DNA of 64,000 nt. It comes from a virus (lineage: Duplodnaviria; Heunggongvirae; Uroviricota; Caudoviricetes). Position numbers and translations under genes: made by a program. Of this stretch, positions 12,557 through 56,112 are shown one piece after another. The stretch lies in IMG/VR virus record IMGVR_UViG_2657245091_000008; one strand, 5' to 3'. Numbering within the stretch: position 1 is the first letter of the stretch; each line of letters starts with the position of its first letter. Below the pieces are notes generated by a model, which was not told the origin of the DNA, did no database searches, and saw nothing but the letters and a program-made list of their open reading frames with translations.

Positions 12557-13456
12557 CTAAATCAATAGCATGGATTTTCCCGTCCCGGATGGTGCGCCAG
12601 TGCTTTCGTGATCCACCTTCGGGCCATACCATACACCTTCAGGCCAGGAAGAACGACGACACACTGTTGCGTATCCAGTCCTGATCTTCTCTCTGGCGGT
12701 ATGTAGTGACAGATTATCCTTTGGGCTTTCAGGCACAGGATGGTGGATTGCCTGAAACATCCCCATCTTTGGATGATACCAGCGTTTATTGCGTGGTTCT
12801 GCCTCCGACATCACCTGCTTAAAGGCTTTCCGGAAGGGGGCCAGGGCCACAATGGAGCGTCGCGCAAGCAAACCATCTGGAGTTAAAAACTCATGCGTAT
12901 CGGTGGGAATCCGGTAAGCGTTGACCAGGTTTCGGCATTTGGCTTCAGTCAGGCCGCATTTCGCCGCCAGCTGGCGGTAGCCAATGTAGCCTTCCGGCAT
13001 ATTGCCTTTCTTTATTTGCTCGACGGTTTCAGCGACTTTGGACACTTGTGCCGATACTTCGGCTACCTGGGCATTAACAGCGTTGATCCGGCGTTCATGC
13101 TCAAGATGCATTTGCGCCATTTCAGCCAGGATTTCGGCTTTTGATTTTAACGGTTCCCTGGCATTCTCCAGTTCGCGCCAGCGGTCCACCAGCCGGGCGG
13201 TGAATTCCGGAGAGAGCTGTGCGACGACAATGATACTATCGCGCTTGCCTTGTTCGCCTTCGAAGACGTAAGCCTCGACACTACGGCGTAGTCCTAAGTT
13301 GTTGATTTTTTCGAAAACCTCAATTTGAGGAAACCGGACAACGCCACCTTTGGCTAATGTCTCAATAGTGCGTTTCACATTATCATGACGCTTACCCACC
13401 AGTTCCGCGATCTCAATACTGGTCATTGTCGCTTTGCGAGAGATGGGCAGATTCAT
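12557..13456 (-). CDS. antirepressor-like protein (Rha/Ant family), copy 1, with C-terminal extension
   Basis: Clear paralogue of the protein at 53637-54344 over about 230 aa; here the stop is absent and the frame continues about 70 aa through sequence homologous to the small ORF 53440-53640. Confidence 0.65.
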   Translation of the reverse strand: MNLPISRKATMTSIEIAELVGKRHDNVKRTIETLAKGGVVRFPQIEVFEKINNLGLRRSVEAYVFEGEQGKRDSIIVVAQLSPEFTARLVDRWRELENAREPLKSKAEILAEMAQMHLEHERRINAVNAQVAEVSAQVSKVAETVEQIKKGNMPEGYIGYRQLAAKCGLTEAKCRNLVNAYRIPTDTHEFLTPDGLLARRSIVALAPFRKAFKQVMSEAEPRNKRWYHPKMGMFQAIHHPVPESPKDNLSLHTAREKIRTGYATVCRRSSWPEGVWYGPKVDHESTGAPSGTGKSMLLI

Positions 13457-13671
13457 CAGTGCACCTCCACGCAGTTCATCGGCAGATTCCAGTAATTGAG
13501 GATCTCCATCGCATCAAGAGTGAAGCGAGCAGCAAAAATGCAGGGTTCTTCGGGAAGGTATGAGCGCGCTTCTGCTTCGGTTGTAGCCATGACGCAGATA
13601 TACAGGTGTTTTTGGCAGGAATAGAAACGCCAGATAAATTCAGAATGAGTTGGGGTAGGGATAGTAGCCAT
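13456..13671 (-). CDS. Icd-like small protein, copy 1
   Basis: 71-aa ORF overlapping the ant start; paralogue of 54344-54568 (shared EFIWRF, TEAEARS); position matches P1 icd upstream of ant. Confidence 0.5.
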   Translation of the reverse strand: MATIPTPTHSEFIWRFYSCQKHLYICVMATTEAEARSYLPEEPCIFAARFTLDAMEILNYWNLPMNCVEVH

Positions 13672-13980
13672 ATTGGCAGCCTCCTTTTGCTAAGTTAAGG
13701 AGCTACCGCGTGAGGTTCCAATCTCAATGGCGGTAGCACTGACTGGGTTGGAACTACCGGCGCAAAAGGGAACCGGCCTGCCTTTCGGCAGCCCAGCCAG
13801 CACTACCATTGATCTCTGAGCTAAACGCTACGTATGGCTGTGCGATGGCATGACACAAAAAAAGACGCTTTCGGCGTCTGTGTCGCCTTTTGCATTATCC
13901 GGGGTTCCAATCCCGGCACCCGTTTTTCTAAGGTGCCGTAGAAATATACCCCACGATAATGCCAGGGCGCAACAGTCAGT
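13672..13980 (-). ncRNA. structured untranslated leader, candidate c4-like antisense RNA region (copy 1)
   Basis: No credible ORF; GGTTCCAATC occurs twice (13706-13715, 13903-13912) with a partial complement at 13736-13745; hairpin plus T run on the minus strand around 13856-13880. Confidence 0.3.
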
Positions 13981-14482
13981 ATTTTATGCTTTGGCGGATT
14001 TCTTCCGGGCTTGCTTGCAGGCGTAGGCCATTGCTTTAGCTTTCACTTCATCCAGCTTCCCGGTAATCACTTCTTTTCCGAGAGTGACAAACCAGTCATA
14101 GCAACCGCCAGTAATGTTCTTGATTTGAAAGTTGAGGTAGCGAACAGTCATTTTGACACCCCCAGCGCGAATAAAGAATGCAGATTATCGCGTGAGTGGT
14201 GGACGACGAGTGATGGGAAAAGACTGTAGTTGTTCATAGTGTAGTGACTCCTTGCTTTCGGAGCCGCCATCGACTGTTCCACGGTCTGGTGGCGGCGCAA
14301 TAAAGGCTGGAACACCGTGAGTCAACGGGGGCTTTTCAGCCACCTATATTGCACCGCCATAGGTATGGCGGCGGCAATAATACGAAAAACTAAATAGTTT
14401 GTCTCAAAAAGTTGACCGGTGTGCCAATCGGTAGTGAATGTACATCGGAGAAATTTTCAATTCAACTTAAAATGTTAGAAAA

Positions 14483-15061
14483 CTAATTTATCAATTCAAT
14501 TGCCATCTGATACAACGCCATTTCATCGGCATTGTGCCGTATGAAATCTGCTTTTCCGCCTATTTTTCCATCAGCATGAACAGGGACCAGCCAGGGATAT
14601 TGTTCTCGGACCTCGGCTGGCGCTGCGTACTGGTGGTGCCATTTACACAAAGGGAGGACATATTTATGCGCGTTCTCTGCCGTTCTCCCGAAGATATGGT
14701 GCAGGGATACCACTGGGCTATGTTGCCCGTGAATATGGCAGGCAATGCAGGGGAGAGTACCGATAGCGGTCTGTATCCGGCGTTCATCGGCTGTGAGTGA
14801 TCTGCCCTTCAGGCCGCGTGACGTGCGTGTTTTTTTGGGCGGAGCGGATACAGCTTTATCTTTTCTCCGCTGTTCATATTGCTTTGCTTTTTCAATTTTC
14901 TTTTGCCGATATTCAGGCGATGCGGCTTTTTCTCTCGCTCGCTGCTGCTGGCGTTGAGCTTGTTGAAGGCGCTTTGCCCTTTGTTCCTCTCGCCAGGCCG
15001 GGTCAGCCAATTTTTGCATGGCCTTTTGTCTCTGTTTCTCCCAATAACTCTGTTTCTGCAT
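14483..15061 (-). CDS. ref: Ref-like recombination enhancement HNH nuclease
   Basis: 192-aa ORF; highly basic Gln/Arg/Lys-rich N-terminal half and Cys/His-rich C-terminal core (PCIACHIHGQH...LPLCKWHH). Confidence 0.55.
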   Translation of the reverse strand: MQKQSYWEKQRQKAMQKLADPAWREEQRAKRLQQAQRQQQRAREKAASPEYRQKKIEKAKQYEQRRKDKAVSAPPKKTRTSRGLKGRSLTADERRIQTAIGTLPCIACHIHGQHSPVVSLHHIFGRTAENAHKYVLPLCKWHHQYAAPAEVREQYPWLVPVHADGKIGGKADFIRHNADEMALYQMAIELIN

Positions 15062-34044: not shown

Positions 34045-34145
34045 GGTTTTCTAAAATTGATGACAAAAAATCACAGTTCGATCCTTTACTCACTCTGTTA
34101 TTCGACATAAATTTGTCATAGTAATTTTATGTTAGAAAACTAAAT
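34045..34145. promoter_or_regulatory. two operator-like sites in the promoter of the candidate repressor gene
   Basis: GGTTTTCTAAAATTGA (34045-34060) and ATGTTAGAAAACTAAAT (34129-34145), the second only 12 bp before the start codon. Confidence 0.5.
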
Positions 34146-34157
34146 CGAGTAGGAATA

Positions 34158-35195
34158 ATGAGTAAGAAGTCGATCGAGAAAGAGTACAAACGGTTCCTGC
34201 AAACCGCTGAACGGTGGAAAGAGCTGGTGGTCGCAAACTCTGTTTTCCATGATACCAGTTATGCTGGCGAGGAATTCCGCCATGTTGCATTAACGCATGA
34301 CCAAAACATATTAGAAGAAGCTGAAAAATGTCTTGCTGAATGGAAAGCCTTCGTTGACATGTGCCGCGATGCCGACGGCAAAGCGTCGAACATTGTTGAG
34401 TCTGTATATTCTCCGATCCCATTCATCATTGAGGACACCAATCAAAGCACGCATGTTGTTGTGCAAAGCGCTACAACAACACGTACATTTACACGTGAAC
34501 AATTGCTCAAAAAATACGACAAAATCATAAAGAAAAGCCTGAAAAATAGGGTTTTTTCTCAAATTGTAGGTGCTCTTGAAGAAGAACAGCGCTTCTTTGA
34601 AGCTGAGCCTGAAGGCGAGATCTACCGGGCGCGTAAAGAGGCATATACAGATGTTGTGCTGACAACAAACATCGAAGGCAGCAATGCCCTTTCTCGCTTT
34701 AGAGTTGGCGCACATGGCGCATTGGTTTTCGCAAGACTACCGAAGACAACGATCCCCGTTGTCAATAATGTTGGTGAACGCCGGAGCATTACAATTTATT
34801 CAGGCGTCGAATCGGTACCTTGCAGCCTTCTCGGCGATTTTAACTTATATCGTGTTCGTGACCTGGAAAAACACCAGCCAAGCTACGTTGCGAAGTCGTA
34901 CATCTTAAGGAACATCGATATTCGCAATGAAAGCCTTAAGCAGAAATCCGCTAAGATGCTGGAGGATGCCGATCCGGCTATTCGCCATATCATTGAGCGT
35001 AAGATACGTACATCACGTGAAGCAATGGCAAGGCTGGATAAAATGGATCTGGAATTGTTAGACGTAATGATGGCCTCTGGAGACGACCTGACCGGCATTA
35101 AACTGAATGAAGCTCGTAAAAAATACGGCAAAGCAATCGAAGAACGTTACGGATACACATTCCCCCAAACGCAGTACGCCGCGAAGCTCTGGTAA
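34158..35195 (+). CDS. candidate master (C1-analogous) repressor
   Basis: 345-aa ORF at the c1 position (convergent with pacB, beside the rox site) with two operator-like motifs just upstream; no similarity to P1 C1 that I can recognise by eye. Confidence 0.35.
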   Translation: MSKKSIEKEYKRFLQTAERWKELVVANSVFHDTSYAGEEFRHVALTHDQNILEEAEKCLAEWKAFVDMCRDADGKASNIVESVYSPIPFIIEDTNQSTHVVVQSATTTRTFTREQLLKKYDKIIKKSLKNRVFSQIVGALEEEQRFFEAEPEGEIYRARKEAYTDVVLTTNIEGSNALSRFRVGAHGALVFARLPKTTIPVVNNVGERRSITIYSGVESVPCSLLGDFNLYRVRDLEKHQPSYVAKSYILRNIDIRNESLKQKSAKMLEDADPAIRHIIERKIRTSREAMARLDKMDLELLDVMMASGDDLTGIKLNEARKKYGKAIEERYGYTFPQTQYAAKLW

Positions 35196-40014: not shown

Positions 40015-40090
40015 TGGTGGCCCCTACCGGATTTGAACCGGTGACCGTGCGATTATGAGTCGCCTGCTCTAACCACTGAGCTAAAGGGCC
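40015..40090 (-). tRNA. tRNA-Ile (anticodon CAU, ileX-like) or tRNA-Met
   Basis: Minus-strand GGCCCTTTAGCTCAGTGGTTAGAGCAGGCGACTCATAATCGC...GGTTCAAATCC...GGGGCCACCA; cloverleaf with CAU anticodon and encoded CCA; very close to E. coli ileX as I recall it. Confidence 0.8.
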
Positions 40091-40227
40091 AGATTACTGT
40101 TAATTCCGCTTACGCTTTTTGCCAGAACCGCGTAAGGCTTTTGCCGCTTGCTCGACCCCATATGCAACCACCAGCAAAAATAAAAATGTCCAACCAGGGT
40201 TCTTATCGGCAAACGCCCAAAAATTCA

Positions 40228-40551
40228 TCACTTACAGCCACCTTGCATTTCCTCGGATAATTCATTGATTTTAGTGCTCAATAAGTAATCAAAGTAAAGA
40301 TAAAACACAAAAGTAACGATAGTGCTTAAAGTGTCTGAAATTGCGTATTTCAGCTCAGGAAGCATGACAAAGCAGACAAATAGCGGAAGAAATAACTGCA
40401 CTATGCACAGGCTCTCCTTCCACAACCATCTATATCTGAAGTCTGACAACAAAAACTCCATTGCTTGAAACTTTATTAGATTGCGGTGCCTGGTGCCTCC
40501 AGGTGACGTTAACCAGTTAACAATTAACGCCGGGATGTTTGACTTAACCAC
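40228..40551 (-). CDS. possible small membrane protein between tRNA genes
   Basis: 107-aa AT-rich ORF with hydrophobic stretches; no clear ribosome-binding site. Confidence 0.25.
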   Translation of the reverse strand: MVKSNIPALIVNWLTSPGGTRHRNLIKFQAMEFLLSDFRYRWLWKESLCIVQLFLPLFVCFVMLPELKYAISDTLSTIVTFVFYLYFDYLLSTKINELSEEMQGGCK

Positions 40552-40711
40552 TAAGGAGGATTGTTTTAACTGTTCCGCGTGCGCTTAGCCGCATTCACCG
40601 CAATGGTAAGAGCACTTGGCTGGCTGGGCGGCGATGACGCCTGTACGCATTTGGTGATCCGGTTCTGCTTCCGGCATTCGCTTAATTAGCCAAATACTCT
40701 TAACGTTGCGC

Positions 40712-40798
40712 TGGCGGAGAGTAATGGAATCGAACCATCATCGCTTGCGCAATGGGACGGTTTTCAAGACCGCTTGAGCACCATGCTCCCTACTCTCC
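40712..40798 (-). tRNA. class II tRNA, anticodon UGA (tRNA-Ser-like)
   Basis: 87 nt; acceptor GGAGAGT/ACTCTCC, anticodon loop CUUGAAA, variable arm with GCAA tetraloop, T loop TTCGATT, discriminator G, encoded CCA. Confidence 0.65.
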
Positions 40799-41170
40799 CG
40801 TTATTGTGGCGACCGGTGCTGATCTCCGGCTTGCGGTTATTTCAGACTCTCACGGGCGTTTAATTGCCCCGCCGAACAGCTCTTTTCCGCAATAGCTGCA
40901 ATGTCTTTCGCGCATCAGCCTGCGCATTCACCACAATGTTGAGAACACTGGTTGTCACGCTGCAACGCAACATTTATTCGTAGATTGGGATATGACCCCG
41001 TTACGCCAGTGTTCTCAACGTTGTAGTGCCGGTTACGGTTCCGGCCAGGCCTCTTCCTCAACGGGGTGTTCTCCATACGGACTACCGTTTATTGGTCGTT
41101 CCTGCGGTTTATGTTGTGAAGCCAGATGCTTATCTTCTGGTTGCTTCAAAGAGCTGCACTTCCTCACAAC

Positions 41171-41244
41171 GGTAAGGGTACTTCGTAGGGATTCGAACCC
41201 TCTGCCAAGCTCGGCGATCTCCGACGTCGCAAAATACCCTTACC
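41171..41244 (-). other. tRNA-like fragment / degenerate tRNA
   Basis: Contains a T-arm-like GGGTTCGAATCCC and a 10-bp terminal inverted repeat (GGTAAGGGTA...TACCCTTACC) but no foldable anticodon or D arm. Confidence 0.3.
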
Positions 41245-41252
41245 TGTTGTGC

Positions 41253-41328
41253 TGGTGCCGATTAACGGACTCGAACCGCTGACCATTCGCTTACAAAGCG
41301 ACTGCTCTACCAACTGAGCTAAATCGGC
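41253..41328 (-). tRNA. tRNA-Thr (anticodon UGU)
   Basis: GCCGATTTAGCTCAGTTGGTAGAGCAGTCGCTTTGTAAGCGAATGGTCAGCGGTTCGAGTCCGTTAATCGGCACCA on the minus strand. Confidence 0.85.
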
Positions 41329-41332
41329 AATT

Positions 41333-41419
41333 TGGTGGGGAGTGATGGAGTCGAACCACCCGAGTCGCAATGACAGTAGATTTACAGTCTACCCCGCTAC
41401 CCCTACGGACTAACTCCCC
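41333..41419 (-). tRNA. tRNA-Tyr (anticodon GUA)
   Basis: 87-nt class II tRNA; anticodon arm GTAGACTGTAAATCTAC, T loop GGTTCGACTCC, discriminator A, CCA. Confidence 0.8.
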
Positions 41420-41424
41420 TAAAG

Positions 41425-41501
41425 TGGCGATGGTGGGTGGATTCGAACCACCGACCGACAGCTTAGAAGGCTGCTGCTCTATCCTACTGAGCTACACCAT
41501 C
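41425..41501 (-). tRNA. tRNA-Arg (anticodon UCU, rare AGA/AGG decoder)
   Basis: GATGGTGTAGCTCAGTAGGATAGAGCAGCAGCCTTCTAAGCTGTCGGTCGGTGGTTCGAATCCACCCACCATCGCCA. Confidence 0.8.
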
Positions 41502-53439: not shown

Positions 53440-53640
53440 TCAAGTCACGATCCAATCATTACCGACTATATCAGCCGTCGATAAATCAACTTCCCGGATC
53501 TGGAGTCCATTAATACAAAACCATCCGGTAGTAGAGTAATTATCAGGCCAGGCCCATACACCAACACTCCATGCTTTACGGCGGCACACTTCAGCCTGTC
53601 CTTCCCTGATTTTTTTTACCGCCTGCATGATGTCCATCAC
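53440..53640 (-). CDS. hypothetical small protein downstream of ant copy 2
   Basis: 66-aa ORF; its homologue in copy 1 is fused in frame to the ant gene. Confidence 0.35.
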   Translation of the reverse strand: MMDIMQAVKKIREGQAEVCRRKAWSVGVWAWPDNYSTTGWFCINGLQIREVDLSTADIVGNDWIVT

Positions 53641-54344
53641 TCACCTCCCCAACCGATCACCTGGAATTGCCCCATTTTGGGGTGATACCAGCGTTTTCCT
53701 CGGTGTTCAGCCTCCGACATCATCCGGTTAAAAGCATTCATGAAGGGATATAAGGCCACGATGGAACGACGCGACAATACCCCCTCTGGAGTTAAAAACT
53801 CATGCGTATCGGTGGGAATCCGGTAAGCGTTGACAAGGTTGCGGCATTTGGCTTCAGTCAGGCCACATTTCGCCGCCAGCTGGCGGTAGCCAATGTAGCC
53901 TTCCGGAATATTGCCTTTCTTTATTTGCTCGACGGTTTCAGCGACCTGGCTAACCTTTGACTCAACAGCATGAATCCGCTTTTGCTGCTGAACTGCATTC
54001 GCAGCCATTGCAGCGATCATCTCTATTTCGGTCAACGGCTGGCGTACTTGTTCTTCCAGTTCGCGCCAGCGGTCCACCAGCCGGGCGGTGAATTCGGGAG
54101 AGAGCTGCGCGACGACAATGATGCTGTCTCGTTTGCCTTGCTCGCCTTCGAAGACGTAAGCCTCAACGCCACGACGCAATCCTAAGTTATTGATTTTTTC
54201 GAAAACAGCCATTGGCGGTTTTCGGATAATGCTTCGAGCAACCATACGCTCAATACTACGTTTAACGTCAGAGTGTTGGCTTCCCACCAGCTCCGCAATC
54301 TCAATGCTGGTCATTGATAGTTTTTCGAGAATGCAGATACCCAT
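53637..54344 (-). CDS. antirepressor-like protein (Rha/Ant family), copy 2
   Basis: 235 aa; paralogue of 12557-13456; coupled to the upstream Icd-like ORF. Confidence 0.65.
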   Translation of the reverse strand: MGICILEKLSMTSIEIAELVGSQHSDVKRSIERMVARSIIRKPPMAVFEKINNLGLRRGVEAYVFEGEQGKRDSIIVVAQLSPEFTARLVDRWRELEEQVRQPLTEIEMIAAMAANAVQQQKRIHAVESKVSQVAETVEQIKKGNIPEGYIGYRQLAAKCGLTEAKCRNLVNAYRIPTDTHEFLTPEGVLSRRSIVALYPFMNAFNRMMSEAEHRGKRWYHPKMGQFQVIGWGGE

Positions 54345-54568
54345 CAGTGAGCCTCCGCAATGCCGGGATTGGTAATATTGCGATACCAGGGATTAGTGTT
54401 TGGTTGTGGGGAAGTAGAGAAACGACCAGTAAGAACACCATGCTGATCAGGGATCAGAGAACGGGCTTCTTTTTCGGTTGCGGCAATTGCGAAGTGATCG
54501 CAGCGTTTTTGCAGGGAGTGGAAACGCCAGATGAATTCTGGACGTGAACAAGGATTGGCATTAACCAT
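54344..54568 (-). CDS. Icd-like small protein, copy 2
   Basis: 74 aa; paralogue of 13456-13671. Confidence 0.5.
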   Translation of the reverse strand: MVNANPCSRPEFIWRFHSLQKRCDHFAIAATEKEARSLIPDQHGVLTGRFSTSPQPNTNPWYRNITNPGIAEAH

Positions 54569-54890
54569 AGTTACGGCCTCACTAACAGGTTTAACAACCT
54601 GCCACCCGCTGTCAAACAGGTGGCAGGACGTGACAGGGTTGACAGACTGGCGTTAGTGAAACCAGCAGGCCGAAGCCTCCCCATCACGCCCCACCATAAT
54701 TCGGGCGTAACGCGGTTTACGGACACAAAAATACCGCAATATCGGAAATCTGCGGTTGTCCGCACTAACATTCAGGCTGTCAAACCCGGTCGCAGAATTT
54801 GCTACGACGGCATGAATATAAGCCTGAAAACATGGAAGATCAACTAAAAATTTCAGCAATGGATGACTTCAGTCGATGATGCAGATCATA
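54569..54890 (-). ncRNA. structured untranslated leader, candidate c4-like antisense RNA region (copy 2)
   Basis: CTGTCAAAC occurs twice (54609-54617, 54777-54785) with its complement GTTGACAG at 54638-54645; 9-bp stem hairpin CCTGCCACC...GGTGGCAGG. Confidence 0.3.
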
Positions 54891-54894
54891 CATT

Positions 54895-54931
54895 CCGTTT
54901 TAGAAACAGCAAATTAATTTTCTAACATAAA
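54895..54931. promoter_or_regulatory. operator-like inverted pair upstream of immI-like module 2
   Basis: GTTTTAGAAACAGC ... ATTTTCTAACATAAAT. Confidence 0.5.
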
Positions 54932-54981
54932 TCATCGGCCGAGCATTTTCCGATCATTGGGATGTTTTGTAGACACACAGG

Positions 54982-55944
54982 TCATCCCCTAAATCCCGCA
55001 GGGATTGACCAATCCTCACGGTCAAATTCAGACCGATAGCCACGCTGTTTCATCAGGTCAAAGGCTTCACCAATGGTTGCACACCCCTGGGAGCCAGAAT
55101 AATCCATTGAGAAATCTAGGGCACTGGATTGTTTAGGCTTATTCACTGCGGTAGCGGCACTACGTATCCATGCAAATTTTTTTGCCAGCTTTTCAGCGGT
55201 ACGATACAGAGCCTGCCGTTTTGCGTGCCCCTCGTCTGAACGACGCTTTGCAGCTCTCGCTTTTGCCGCCGCCAGGCAGTGGTTGGTATGTTCTTCCCTG
55301 ATTACTGGTTTTTTATCCAGTACCACGTTATCCGTTTGAGAACTATCTGCTGGTGAAGCCTTTGGCTGAACCGCGCATGATCTTTCTCTTCTTTTGGCTA
55401 TAGAGTGACTCTTATTTTCTATTGGCTGTTCATTTTGAACATGGGGGGACTTGTTCAATTTGAACAGGGGGTTCCCAGTTTCAAAAAAATAACGAACCTT
55501 TGAAATCAACTGCTTAACCAGTTTTGTGGCGTTGGCAAATTTGATGCCCTGCTTACCCCCTATCTCCATTGCTACATGAATGAAGTGGAGAAATTGTGTC
55601 GTAAACCGATATACGTTACACACCTGGGCATTGTTATTCGCTACCTGATGTTGCTTAACAAGCATTCCGCACTTCGTCGCTTCAGCAAATGCCCGGCGCA
55701 CAGTAGAAATACTGCGTCCTGTAATCTCGGACATATCAGCATATGAGCGACGGATCATGTATTCATCGGTAGACCCTGCCAGGTTAGCGAACTCGGCAAT
55801 AATGGCGCTATGTGAAGGGGAAAGAAGACCGCTATGACGAGCAAAAAAACTCAACTGATGACCTTTGATTTTTTTGTGGTATTCAGTGTTGTTTTTATAC
55901 TCAGAAGTGTTGAAAGTTACTGAAACTGAATTTAAAATACTCAC
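54982..55944 (-). CDS. putative replication / DNA-binding protein with HTH (RepL-like?)
   Basis: 320 aa; HTH-like segment YADMSEITGRSISTVRRAFAEATKCGMLV and a basic C-terminal half; operator-like site in its promoter. Confidence 0.35.
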   Translation of the reverse strand: MSILNSVSVTFNTSEYKNNTEYHKKIKGHQLSFFARHSGLLSPSHSAIIAEFANLAGSTDEYMIRRSYADMSEITGRSISTVRRAFAEATKCGMLVKQHQVANNNAQVCNVYRFTTQFLHFIHVAMEIGGKQGIKFANATKLVKQLISKVRYFFETGNPLFKLNKSPHVQNEQPIENKSHSIAKRRERSCAVQPKASPADSSQTDNVVLDKKPVIREEHTNHCLAAAKARAAKRRSDEGHAKRQALYRTAEKLAKKFAWIRSAATAVNKPKQSSALDFSMDYSGSQGCATIGEAFDLMKQRGYRSEFDREDWSIPAGFRG

Positions 55945-56112
55945 CAGATAGTTCCGTGAAAAAATCTATCTACCGTATAAATCTATGGCAGTGGATTTAT
56001 ACACCCAAAAAGCCGCTTCTCAGCGGCTTTTGCTTTTTTGGCAGTCGCTACCGGAGCAGTGACCGCGATCCTACTCGATCCCATCCACCAGGATCAACAG
56101 TGTATATAAATA

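What the first reader, a model, noticed from the sequence alone, without database searches (positions are those of the whole stretch)
54344..54931. immI-like module 2 uses a different repeated sequence, implying two antirepressor switches with distinct antisense specificity in one genome
Copy 2 has CTGTCAAAC twice (54609-54617, 54777-54785) and its complement GTTGACAG at 54638-54645, in a leader that otherwise shows little primary-sequence similarity to copy 1, while the downstream Icd-like and Ant-like proteins are clear paralogues. The operator-like pair at 54895-54931 sits where Op51 would be in P1. Two heterospecific c4-like systems would resemble the P1/P7 heteroimmunity determinants co-resident in one phage.
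Basis: partly seen in the sequence, partly recalled or inferred. Interest (0 to 1): 0.75.

Follow-up and report, generated by a model that had tools for sequence, protein, structure and literature searches.

The report
Two orthogonal c4 antisense-RNA immunity switches
This D6-like E. coli phage-plasmid carries two copies of the well-known phage P1 "c4" antisense-RNA switch, one of them identical to P1's own, with recognition sequences that cannot cross-pair; the reading is correct but the system, and its duplication in this phage group, are already known.

Summary
CTGTCAAAC occurs only at 54609-54617 and 54777-54785 in the 64 kb window, with its complement at 54638-54645.

All features lie on the minus strand. 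They are the a1, a' and a2 elements of a C4 antisense RNA (Rfam RF01695, 68.8 bits) whose 77 nt are identical to phage P1 c4. b2 covers the Shine-Dalgarno sequence of icd.

A second, IsrK-type C4 module lies at 13936-12557 (76.7 bits). Its elements are unrelated: a' GUUCCAA and b' CCUUUUGC.

Across 53 distinct relatives, 100% of the a and b pairings are kept through compensatory changes. At least 12 specificity classes exist for the P1-type scaffold and 4 for the IsrK type.

The window is a D6-like phage-plasmid, 95.6% identical to D6. D6 itself, RCS47, JL22 and about 30 IMG/VR contigs also carry two or more modules.

Two heterospecific switches in one genome is therefore supported by sequence, with these caveats:
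- The cargo proteins are Rha-family, not P1 Ant.
- Only one arm of the "operator pair" matches the dispersed operator motif.
- Orthogonality in vivo is untested.
- A second c4/icd region in D6-like plasmids is already published.

This is an ordinary member of a known kind. The allele combinatorics are a modest bonus.

The parts
54914..54927 (-). Module 2: single copy of the dispersed operator motif TGTTAGAAAATTAA (candidate D6-type C1 operator, Op51 analogue)
   Evidence: 16 sites in the window against 1.24 expected; 0 mismatches here. Conserved in D6. Binding by C1 is inferred, not tested.
54815..54843 (-). Module 2: sigma-70 promoter-like site TTGATC-17-TATATT, positional equivalent of P1 P51b (P1c4)
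   Evidence: It aligns with the annotated P1 P1c4 promoter.
54769..54821 (-). Module 2: Rfam c4-a1b1 motif (RF03163, 55.2 bits)
54777..54783 (-).
   Evidence: covariation.
54763..54769 (-). Module 2 b1 target (GUUAGUG)
54619..54695 (-). Module 2 c4 antisense RNA, 77 nt, identical to P1 c4. Ends set by analogy with the P1 annotation; the Rfam hit is 54616-54701.
   Evidence: 68.8 bits, cut-off 45; identity to P1; MFE -42.5, z -4.66.
54652..54658 (-). Module 2 b' (CACUAAC) in the loop of hairpin II
54639..54645 (-).
54609..54615 (-).
54579..54586 (-). Module 2 b2 target (GUUAGUGA), overlapping the icd Shine-Dalgarno GAGG (54580->54577)
   Evidence: sequence.
54344..54568 (-). Module 2 icd-like ORF (74 aa)
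   Evidence: NF033153 phage_ICD_like, 38.4 bits; annotated in D6.
53637..54344 (-). Module 2 cargo: Rha-domain 'Ant/Roi-like' protein (235 aa). Its start overlaps the icd stop (TGATG).
   Evidence: (PF09669).
14473..14486 (+). Module 1: operator motif copy (1 mismatch) at the 3' end of ref, upstream of the module
   Evidence: conserved in D6.
13858..13936 (-). Module 1: IsrK-like leader RNA (RF01394, 62.5 bits) carrying a1 (13910->13904, UUGGAAC) and b1 (13893->13886, GCAAAAGG)
13863..13879 (-). Module 1: intrinsic terminator hairpin followed by a U-run, between a1/b1 and c4
13726..13813 (-). Module 1 c4-type antisense RNA (Rfam hit), with b' 13769->13762 (CCUUUUGC) and a' 13754->13748 (GUUCCAA)
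   Evidence: 76.7 bits; MFE -46.4, z -5.46.
13715..13721 (-). Module 1 a2 target (UUGGAAC)
13683..13690 (-). Module 1 b2 target (GCAAAAGG), overlapping the SD AAGGAGG of the icd-like ORF
   Evidence: sequence.
13456..13671 (-). Module 1 icd-like ORF (71 aa)
   Evidence: NF033153, 49.7 bits.
12557..13456 (-). Module 1 cargo: Rha-domain Ant-like paralogue (299 aa), 71% identical to the module 2 protein
34158..35195 (+). Distant C1-repressor homologue (345 aa) with an operator motif copy just upstream (34130-34143); presumed regulator of both modules' operators
   Evidence: tblastn, 21% identity, E 2.6e-7; NF041318, 25 bits, far below cut-off.

Best explanation
The finding is the leader of a P1-type immI switch read on the minus strand. 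A constitutive promoter (54843->54815), with a C1-type operator copy upstream, transcribes a1-b1, then c4, then a2, a hairpin, b2/SD, icd and a Rha-type effector. c4 is excised from this transcript. In P1 this is done by RNase P, giving a 77-nt RNA; that step is established knowledge and was not tested here. The b' loop and a' linker of c4 pair with b2, which covers the icd ribosome-binding site, and with a2. This blocks icd translation. Because the effector gene is coupled to icd (TGATG overlap, plus Rho polarity in P1), the effector is kept off. a1/b1 in the 5' leader are extra cognate sites. In the IsrK-type module they sit on a separately terminated small RNA that can titrate c4 (anti-antisense), as IsrK does in Gifsy-1. 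The same genome carries a second, IsrK-type module (13936->12557) built on the same plan but with unrelated a and b sequences. Each c4 should therefore lock only its own icd-effector operon: two orthogonal RNA locks on two paralogous effectors. Shown here: the RNA family membership, the folds, the cis-complementarity, its covariation in relatives, the lack of cross-complementarity, and the gene order. Inferred: processing, repression in vivo, C1 binding to the operator, and antirepressor activity of the Rha-type proteins.
For: Rfam C4 at 54701->54616 (68.8 bits) and 13813->13726 (76.7 bits), c4-a1b1 at 54821->54769, isrK at 13936->13858. The module 2 c4 and all four targets are identical to annotated P1 c4/a1/b1/a2/b2. 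Both c4 RNAs fold into the family structure with b' in a loop and a' unpaired, z -4.7 and -5.5. All four perfect targets are present in 114/114 P1-type and 71/72 IsrK-type loci from IMG/VR and reference phages. On 53 distinct leaders, 100% of a'/a2, b'/b2, a1/a' and b1/b' cells are paired; 6 of 8 (b'/b2; 6 of 7 for b1/b') 'b' pairs and 2 of 7 'a' pairs carry compensatory changes; slid controls give 27-52%. Cognate duplexes are -8 to -13 kcal/mol against -2 to -6 for the other module's targets. Both icd-like ORFs hit NF033153, and each effector start overlaps its icd stop. The operator motif is 13-fold enriched (16 sites against 1.24 expected) and lies upstream of both modules and of the C1 homologue. 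For the IsrK-type design, Gifsy-1 experiments show that IsrK in trans activates the downstream anti-repressor-like gene 140-fold, and that an ~80-nt RNA is processed from read-through (PMC4825925).
Against: There are no expression data for this element. The effectors are Rha-domain proteins (PF09669) with no detectable similarity to P1 Ant1 (PF03374), so 'antirepressor' is a positional label. The C1 homologue is only 21% identical to P1-type C1 and scores far below the NCBIfam cut-off. The module 1 operator copy is about 70 nt from the nearest promoter-like site and in the opposite orientation. A P51a-like promoter next to the module 2 operator did not pass the scanner. One non-cognate duplex (module 1 b' against the module 2 upstream leader) reaches -8.9 kcal/mol, at a non-target site.
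Confidence: 0.82

Rival explanations
1. The two modules are independently acquired mobile c4-icd-effector cassettes. Their different recognition sequences reflect separate ancestry (IsrK-type versus P1-type subfamilies), not selection for a two-lock, heteroimmune design. One of them may be accessory or decaying.
For: Module-1-type cassettes occur in lambdoid-size contigs (40-60 kb) and at a different site (between pacB and c1) in the P1-like phages RCS47 and JL22, with a different cargo (ORF6N+ANT). The two leaders are only about 47% identical. PGAP marks the module 1 Rha gene as a pseudogene in the near-identical plasmid NZ_CP031917.1. With 15 co-resident P1-type pairs, 'never the same class' is expected by chance about 15% of the time (my estimate from the class frequencies).
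Against: Both modules are retained with intact c4, targets, icd and effector in D6, the window and 22 IMG/VR contigs. All eight target elements are perfect matches. The effectors are 71% identical paralogues, which suggests they act on related partners.
Confidence: 0.3
2. The RNA switches are real, but they do not control antirepressors of the prophage repressor. The Rha/Roi-type proteins and Icd would then serve another purpose under c4 control, such as host takeover, exclusion of other phages or cell-division arrest.
For: The cargo is PF09669 Phage_pRha and is not related to P1 Ant1/2. D6 annotators liken it to HK97 Roi. Cargo differs between cassettes that share the same RNA switch. In Gifsy-1 the IsrK-controlled product acts through the antiterminator AntQ and causes growth arrest (PMC4825925).
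Against: The position is the same as ant in P1. The Gifsy-1 AnrP output is de-repression of a phage operon. C1-type operator copies lie upstream of both modules.
Confidence: 0.25
3. The repeats are chance short matches in an AT/GC-mixed intergenic region.
For: The repeats are only 7-9 nt long.
Against: The 9-mer occurs only at these two sites in 64 kb. The repeats lie inside Rfam hits, are identical to the annotated P1 a1/a2/a' and covary perfectly in 53 relatives.
Confidence: 0.01

Closest known systems
Phage P1 immI (c4 antisense RNA - icd - ant1/ant2; Citron & Schuster 1990, Lobocka 2004 annotation AF234172)
   Same: Module 2 has the identical 77-nt c4, identical a1/b1/a2/b2, the same order and spacing, a P51b-equivalent promoter, icd directly downstream with b2 over its SD, and an upstream repressor-operator copy.
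   Different: The effector is a 235-aa Rha-domain protein, not Ant1/Ant2 (KilAC). The operator has a different sequence (TGTTAGAAAWTTAA versus P1 ATTGCTCTAATAAATTT). The module lies downstream of repL rather than upstream of kilA-repL, and there is no sim operon beside it.
Phage P7 immI (the classical heteroimmune partner of P1)
   Same: Same scaffold. Specificity is set by a and b. P7 has a' CUGCUAA and b' CACAAUC with matching targets.
   Different: P1 and P7 differ by 2+2 nt on one scaffold and reside in different phages. Here the two co-resident modules differ in scaffold subfamily and at nearly every a/b position.
Gifsy-1 IsrK - orf45/STnc1160 - AnrP locus of Salmonella (PMC4825925)
   Same: Module 1 hits Rfam isrK (62.5 bits) directly upstream of a C4 hit. 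It has an intrinsic terminator after the a1/b1-bearing small RNA, and a processed ~80-nt RNA is expected from read-through.
   Different: In the window an Icd-like ORF lies between c4 and the effector. The Gifsy-1 work interprets the c4 region as a coding 'orf45'. That STnc1160 equals the c4 homologue is my inference from the adjacent Rfam hits in the window and was not tested on Gifsy-1 sequence.
Phage D6 and D6-like plasmid prophages (NC_050154; pYU39_89, PMC6799933)
   Same: The window is 95.6% (module 2 region) and 91.9% (module 1 region) identical to D6. D6 has both icd/Ant pairs annotated and both C4 RNAs by Rfam. [quoted passage not shown]
   Different: Specificity alleles differ from D6 in one element of each module. 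In module 2, b' is CACUAAC here and CGUAAGU in D6. In module 1, a' is GUUCCAA here and GUCUCAA in D6. c4 RNAs are not annotated in the D6 record.
Satellite phage P4 CI RNA with seqA/seqB/seqC
   Same: A processed small RNA excised from the leader of the operon it controls pairs with repeated sites upstream and downstream of itself. The analogy is drawn in PMC4825925.
   Different: The outcome in P4 is transcription termination of replication genes. It was not compared at sequence level here.

Membership tests
C4 antisense RNA (Rfam RF01695) / P1 immI switch | Covariance-model score at or above the family gathering score | tested here: met
   68.8 bits (54701->54616) and 76.7 bits (13813->13726) against a cut-off of 45.
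C4 antisense RNA (Rfam RF01695) / P1 immI switch | Long closing stem enclosing two hairpins, with b' in the second hairpin loop and a' in the 3' single-stranded linker | tested here: met
   The MFE and centroid structures of both RNAs show this, z -4.66 and -5.46. The stems are kept in 53 relatives.
C4 antisense RNA (Rfam RF01695) / P1 immI switch | Cis-encoded targets a2 and b2 downstream of c4, with b2 overlapping the ribosome-binding site of the next ORF | tested here: met
   Module 2: a2 54615->54609, b2 54586->54579 over GAGG. Module 1: a2 13721->13715, b2 13690->13683 over AAGGAGG (sequences). 100% paired with compensatory changes.
C4 antisense RNA (Rfam RF01695) / P1 immI switch | Upstream duplicate targets a1 and b1 in the same transcript | tested here: met
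   RF03163 at 54821->54769 and RF01394 at 13936->13858; exact complements; covariation.
C4 antisense RNA (Rfam RF01695) / P1 immI switch | icd-like ORF immediately downstream, coupled to the effector gene | tested here: met
   NF033153 hits at 38.4 and 49.7 bits. One-base TGATG overlaps at 54344 and 13456.
C4 antisense RNA (Rfam RF01695) / P1 immI switch | Effector is the Ant1/Ant2 antirepressor (KilAC/ANT domain) that inactivates C1 | tested here: not met
   Both effectors carry PF09669 Phage_pRha and have no significant similarity to P1 Ant1 (PF03374). Activity was not tested.
C4 antisense RNA (Rfam RF01695) / P1 immI switch | C1-controlled operator (Op51) upstream of a constitutive promoter | tested here: inconclusive
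One perfect copy of a 13-fold enriched dispersed motif lies 71 nt upstream of the P51b-like -35. A distant C1 homologue is present.
C4 antisense RNA (Rfam RF01695) / P1 immI switch | Excision of a ~77-nt RNA by RNase P and repression of icd/ant in trans | not testable with these tools
   Needs Northern blot or RNA-seq and reporter assays.
IsrK Hfq-binding RNA (Rfam RF01394), module 1 leader | CM score above gathering and an intrinsic terminator ending the short isoform | tested here: met
   62.5 bits against 50. Terminator 13879->13863 plus a U-run.
P1/P7-type heteroimmunity pair | Two c4 RNAs whose a'/b' cannot pair with each other's a2/b2 | tested here: met
   The elements share no register of complementarity. 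Duplex energies are -8 to -13 kcal/mol (cognate) and -2 to -6 (non-cognate target regions).
P1/P7-type heteroimmunity pair | Lack of cross-repression in vivo, giving heteroimmunity | not testable with these tools

The most novel reading that the evidence does not exclude
The a'/b' elements of c4 RNAs may form a combinatorial, population-wide immunity barcode. At least 2 a-alleles x 7 b-alleles are seen on the P1-type scaffold (12 combinations) and 2 x 2 on the IsrK-type scaffold (all 4 combinations). Every class keeps four perfectly matched cis targets. The classes are shared between Punavirus and D6-like backbones, even though the elements are interleaved (a1-b1-b'-a'-a2-b2) and cannot be swapped by one crossover. 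Genomes would then stack two to four orthogonal locks. This would broaden the set of incoming relatives they silence and make their own effectors harder for a resident prophage to silence. The a1/b1 leader (IsrK) would serve as a built-in sponge for c4. On this reading the window phage would share immI module 2 specificity with P1 itself and be heterospecific to D6 in both modules.
Probability: 0.4. Interest if true: 0.55.

Novelty: new member of a known kind. Interest (0 to 1): 0.3.

Why it matters
The switch itself is textbook P1 biology, so nothing about the mechanism is overturned.

What the analysis adds is the following:
- A precise, checkable map of both switches in a common E. coli plasmid-prophage lineage. 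The module 2 leader is found in 536 of 5426 complete E. coli genomes and the module 1 leader in 310. In these records the RNAs are unannotated, or are annotated as an 'ash family protein'.
- Direct comparative evidence that c4 and target pairing is the selected feature.
- A list of specificity classes that predicts which P1-like and D6-like phage-plasmids should be homo- or hetero-immune at immI.

These phage-plasmids often carry resistance genes. Predictable RNA-level cross-immunity could therefore help explain which of them can coexist or displace each other.

Tried and rejected
- **Chance repeats.** Rejected.
- **Bivalent operator at 54895-54931.** Rejected. Only 54927->54914 fits the dispersed motif; the inverted TTAGAAA arm mismatches at 5 of 14 positions (my count against the motif).
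- **A P51a-like promoter abutting the operator** (TTGCTG-16-TATGAT, 54912->54885). It did not pass the scanner and is left as a weak inference.
- **Module 2 as a new specificity.** Rejected. It is P1's exact allele.
- **The effectors as homologues of P1 Ant1/2.** Rejected.
- **First IMG/VR scan.** It returned nothing because I mis-counted the loop length (7 N instead of 6). It was repeated correctly.
- **The D6 genome paper** (Gilcrease & Casjens 2018; DOI and PMC5800970). It is not held, so I could not check what it says about the two regions.
- **Avoidance of identical classes within a genome.** I considered claiming this, but with only 15 co-resident P1-type pairs it is not significant.
- **Literature on c4 allele diversity.** Searches found none beyond P1 and P7. 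Absence from this library is not proof.
Full report
**What the window is.** The region 53600-56000 is 95.6% identical to Escherichia phage D6, a P1-supercluster plasmid prophage. A 372-bp core (54457-54828) is 92.8% identical to the P1 c4-icd region. The leader is 100% identical to E. coli O45:H2 plasmid NZ_CP031917.1. All genes of the finding are on the minus strand. They are an icd-like ORF 54568->54344 (74 aa) and a 235-aa 'Ant' 54344->53637. repL lies upstream and a DarB-like giant ORF lies further downstream.

**Checking the observation.**
- The coordinates are exact. CTGTCAAAC occurs only at 54609-54617 and 54777-54785 in 64 kb, and GTTGACAG occurs only at 54638-54645.
- Rfam places a C4 antisense RNA (RF01695) at 54701->54616 (68.8 bits, cut-off 45) and the c4-a1b1 motif (RF03163) at 54821->54769.
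- Rfam also finds a second C4 RNA at 13813->13726 (76.7 bits), preceded by an isrK hit (RF01394) at 13936->13858.
- In the richly annotated P1 record, a1 = a2 = TTGACAG, b1 = GTTAGTGC, b2 = GTTAGTGA, and c4 is 77 nt. The window carries exactly these sequences.
b2 overlaps the GAGG Shine-Dalgarno 8 nt before the icd ATG.

**Anatomy of module 2.**
- A sigma-70-like site, TTGATC-17-TATATT (54843->54815), aligns with P1's constitutive P51b.
- Seventy-one nt upstream of it lies one perfect copy of TGTTAGAAAATTAA (54927->54914).
- This motif occurs 16 times in the window against 1.24 expected. Copies lie just upstream of a distant C1-repressor homologue (34158-35195; 21% identity to RCS47 C1, E 2.6e-7). 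Others lie upstream of a cre-like gene, repL and ref, and as an overlapping inverted pair at 2961-2990.
- The motif is the obvious candidate for the D6-type C1 operator, analogous to P1's dispersed asymmetric operators. Binding was not tested.
By my count it mismatches the motif at 5 of 14 positions, so I read this as a single, monovalent operator like P1 Op51.
- c4 folds as the family requires. b' sits in the loop of hairpin II and a' in the unpaired linker (MFE -42.5 kcal/mol, z -4.66).

**Anatomy of module 1.** It follows the same plan, in this order:
- An operator copy at 14473-14486, overlapping the ref stop codon.
- Two small ORFs.
- An IsrK-like leader with a1 (13910->13904, UUGGAAC, in a hairpin loop) and b1 (13893->13886, GCAAAAGG).
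- An intrinsic terminator at 13879->13863.
- c4 with b' CCUUUUGC (13769->13762) and a' GUUCCAA (13754->13748) (z -5.46).
- a2 at 13721->13715.
- b2 at 13690->13683, over the SD AAGGAGG.
- An icd-like ORF 13671->13456.
- A 299-aa effector 13456->12557.

The two leaders are collinear but only about 47% identical.

**Are the two switches heterospecific?**
- The a and b elements of the two modules share no register of complementarity.
- Duplex energies of the single-stranded c4 elements are -8.1 to -13.1 kcal/mol for cognate targets.
- They are -2.0 to -6.0 kcal/mol for the other module's target regions. One value of -8.9 falls at a non-target site with an internal loop.
- My module 2 upstream segment in that call stopped just short of b1. 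That explains the single weak 'cognate' value there; b1 is a perfect 7-nt complement.

- I scanned IMG/VR with the invariant hairpin-I cores. This gave 117 P1-type loci and 71 IsrK-type loci.
- Every P1-type locus with complete flanks (114/114) and 71 of 72 IsrK-type loci carry all four perfectly complementary targets.
- On an alignment of 53 distinct P1-type leaders (A2), 100% of cells are paired in a'/a2, b'/b2, a1/a' and b1/b'.
- Compensatory double changes occur at 6 of 8 (b'/b2; 6 of 7 for b1/b') 'b' pairs and 2 of 7 'a' pairs.
- Sliding the partner by 1-3 columns drops pairing to 27-52%. No shuffle out of 500 reaches the observed covariation score.
- The rest of the leader is about 91% conserved. 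Variation is therefore concentrated in the six recognition elements and is always coordinated.

**Specificity classes.**
- On the P1-type scaffold there are two a' alleles: CUGUCAA (P1) and CUGCUAA (P7).
- There are seven b' alleles: CACUAAC (P1), CACAAUC (P7), CGUAAGU (D6), CAUGUAC, CAUUCGU, CACAAGU and CUUGAAC. Twelve combinations are observed.
- On the IsrK-type scaffold there are two a' alleles (GUUCCAA, GUCUCAA) and two b' alleles (CCUUUUGC, CCUUUGAC). All four combinations are observed.
- The window is P1-class in module 2 and GUUCCAA/CCUUUUGC in module 1.
- D6 differs in one element of each module: b' CGUAAGU in module 2 and a' GUCUCAA in module 1.
- D6-type backbones (-10 TATATTC) carry at least four b and two a alleles, as do P1-type backbones. 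The alleles therefore cross lineage boundaries.

**How common is more than one module?**
- D6 has both.
- The P1-like phages RCS47 and JL22 have an IsrK-type module inserted between pacB and c1, in addition to the canonical immI.
- Among IMG/VR contigs, 22 carry one of each type, 6 carry two P1-type modules, one carries four, and one carries 1+3.
- No co-resident pair shares both a' and b'. With 15 same-scaffold pairs, however, this is not statistically compelling.

**Prior knowledge.**
- PMC6906374 notes extra ant or icd-ant insertions in P1-like plasmids, including the pacB-c1 site.
- Neither paper analyses RNA specificity, and I found no paper that does so beyond P1/P7.
- The D6 genome paper is not in the library.
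- For the IsrK-type design, Gifsy-1 experiments show three things (PMC4825925). The short IsrK RNA ends at its terminator. Read-through gives the operon mRNA, from which an ~80-nt RNA (STnc1160) is processed. IsrK supplied in trans activates the downstream anti-repressor-like gene 140-fold.
- Given the adjacent isrK and C4 Rfam hits in the window, I infer that STnc1160 is the c4 homologue and that IsrK, which bears a1/b1, acts as its sponge. This is inference only.

**The cargo.**
- The two effectors are 71% identical paralogues.
- They carry the Rha domain (PF09669) and show no similarity to P1 Ant1 (PF03374) or to the RCS47 second-module protein (ORF6N+ANT).
- The RNA switch with its Icd leader ORF is therefore a portable controller attached to different effectors.
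- Calling these proteins antirepressors rests on position and annotation only.

**Most likely mechanism.**
- Each module is transcribed from a constitutive promoter, with possible extra C1-controlled input.
- c4 is excised and pairs through b' and a' with b2/SD and a2 of its own operon. This blocks icd translation and, through coupling and polarity, blocks effector expression.
- a1/b1 add cognate sites in the leader that can titrate c4.
- The two c4 RNAs are mutually blind, which gives two independent locks.
- Shown: family membership, fold, complementarity, covariation and gene order.
- From established P1 work (own knowledge: Citron & Schuster 1990; Biere, Citron & Schuster 1992; Hartmann et al. 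1995): RNase P processing, translational repression of icd and Rho-dependent polarity on ant.
- Inferred: all in vivo behaviour in this element.

**Verdict.**
- It is a new member of a known kind. Module 2 is literally P1's c4, and the duplication in D6-like phages has already been remarked on in print.
- The modestly novel residue is the combinatorial allele structure and the stacking of orthogonal modules.

Noticed in passing
window 13690-13809 (-): The in-frame translation of the module 1 c4 RNA gene (39 aa) hits Pfam PF10554 Phage_ASH above its cut-off (32.5 against 26 bits). PGAP annotates an 'ash family protein' at the same place in NZ_CP031917.1. This protein family appears to be modelled, at least in part, on an RNA gene; compare 'orf45' in Gifsy-1 and the old 'c4: CDS' in X15639.
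   Followed up: partly
window, 16 sites: 2961, 2977, 11043, 14473, 15126, 19623, 32720, 34130, 38563, 42564, 42580, 42720, 43969, 45012, 54914, 56118: Dispersed asymmetric motif T-R-TGTTAGAAAA-y-TAA-t-n-T, 16 copies against 1.2 expected. Copies lie upstream of the C1 homologue, a cre-like gene, repL and ref, and as an overlapping inverted pair at 2961-2990. It is the likely D6-type C1 operator set.
   Followed up: partly
L025 (IMG/VR 2778261639_000014), IsrK-type module: This is the only one of 186 loci with a mismatched target. Its a1 is TTGAGAC (the other allele) while a'/a2 are GTTCCAA/TTGGAAC. It looks like a patch-wise recombinant in which only the upstream decoy site is mismatched.
   Followed up: partly
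alignment A2 (53 P1-type leaders): The recognition elements are interleaved (a1-b1-b'-a'-a2-b2), so swapping one set needs at least two exchange patches. Even so, nearly all a x b allele combinations exist, on both D6-type and P1-type backbones.
   Followed up: partly
window 12557-12720 (-) and 53440-53640 (-): The C-terminal tail of the module 1 effector (KIRTGYATVCRRSSWPEGVW...) resembles the separate 66-aa ORF downstream of the module 2 effector (KIREGQAEVCRRKAWSVGVW...). This suggests a gene fusion or frameshift in module 1. PGAP marks that gene as a pseudogene in NZ_CP031917.1.
   Followed up: no
L005 (RCS47) 1316-2920 and L006 (JL22) 1234-2835: These P1-like Punavirus genomes carry a second, IsrK-type c4 module between pacB and c1. 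Its cargo (ORF6N+ANT) differs from the D6-like Rha-type cargo.
   Followed up: partly
IMG/VR contig 2703718869_000013 (L188-L191) and 2713896909_000009 (L068, L168, L169): Single ~97-kb contigs carry four c4 modules (four P1-type; or three P1-type plus one IsrK-type), all of different specificity classes. Assembly artefacts were not excluded.
   Followed up: no
window 40018-41501 (-): A cluster of four tRNA genes (Rfam tRNA hits at 40018, 41256, 41336 and 41428), as in the D6 tRNA region.
   Followed up: no
window 54715-54750 (-): Between b1 and c4 of the P1-type module there is a hairpin followed by AUUUUUGUGU (ACCGCA...UGCGGU, 12-nt loop). It resembles the IsrK terminator of module 1 but was not reported by the terminator scan, which allows loops of only 3-8 nt. 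It may yield a short a1/b1 RNA in P1-type modules as well.
   Followed up: no
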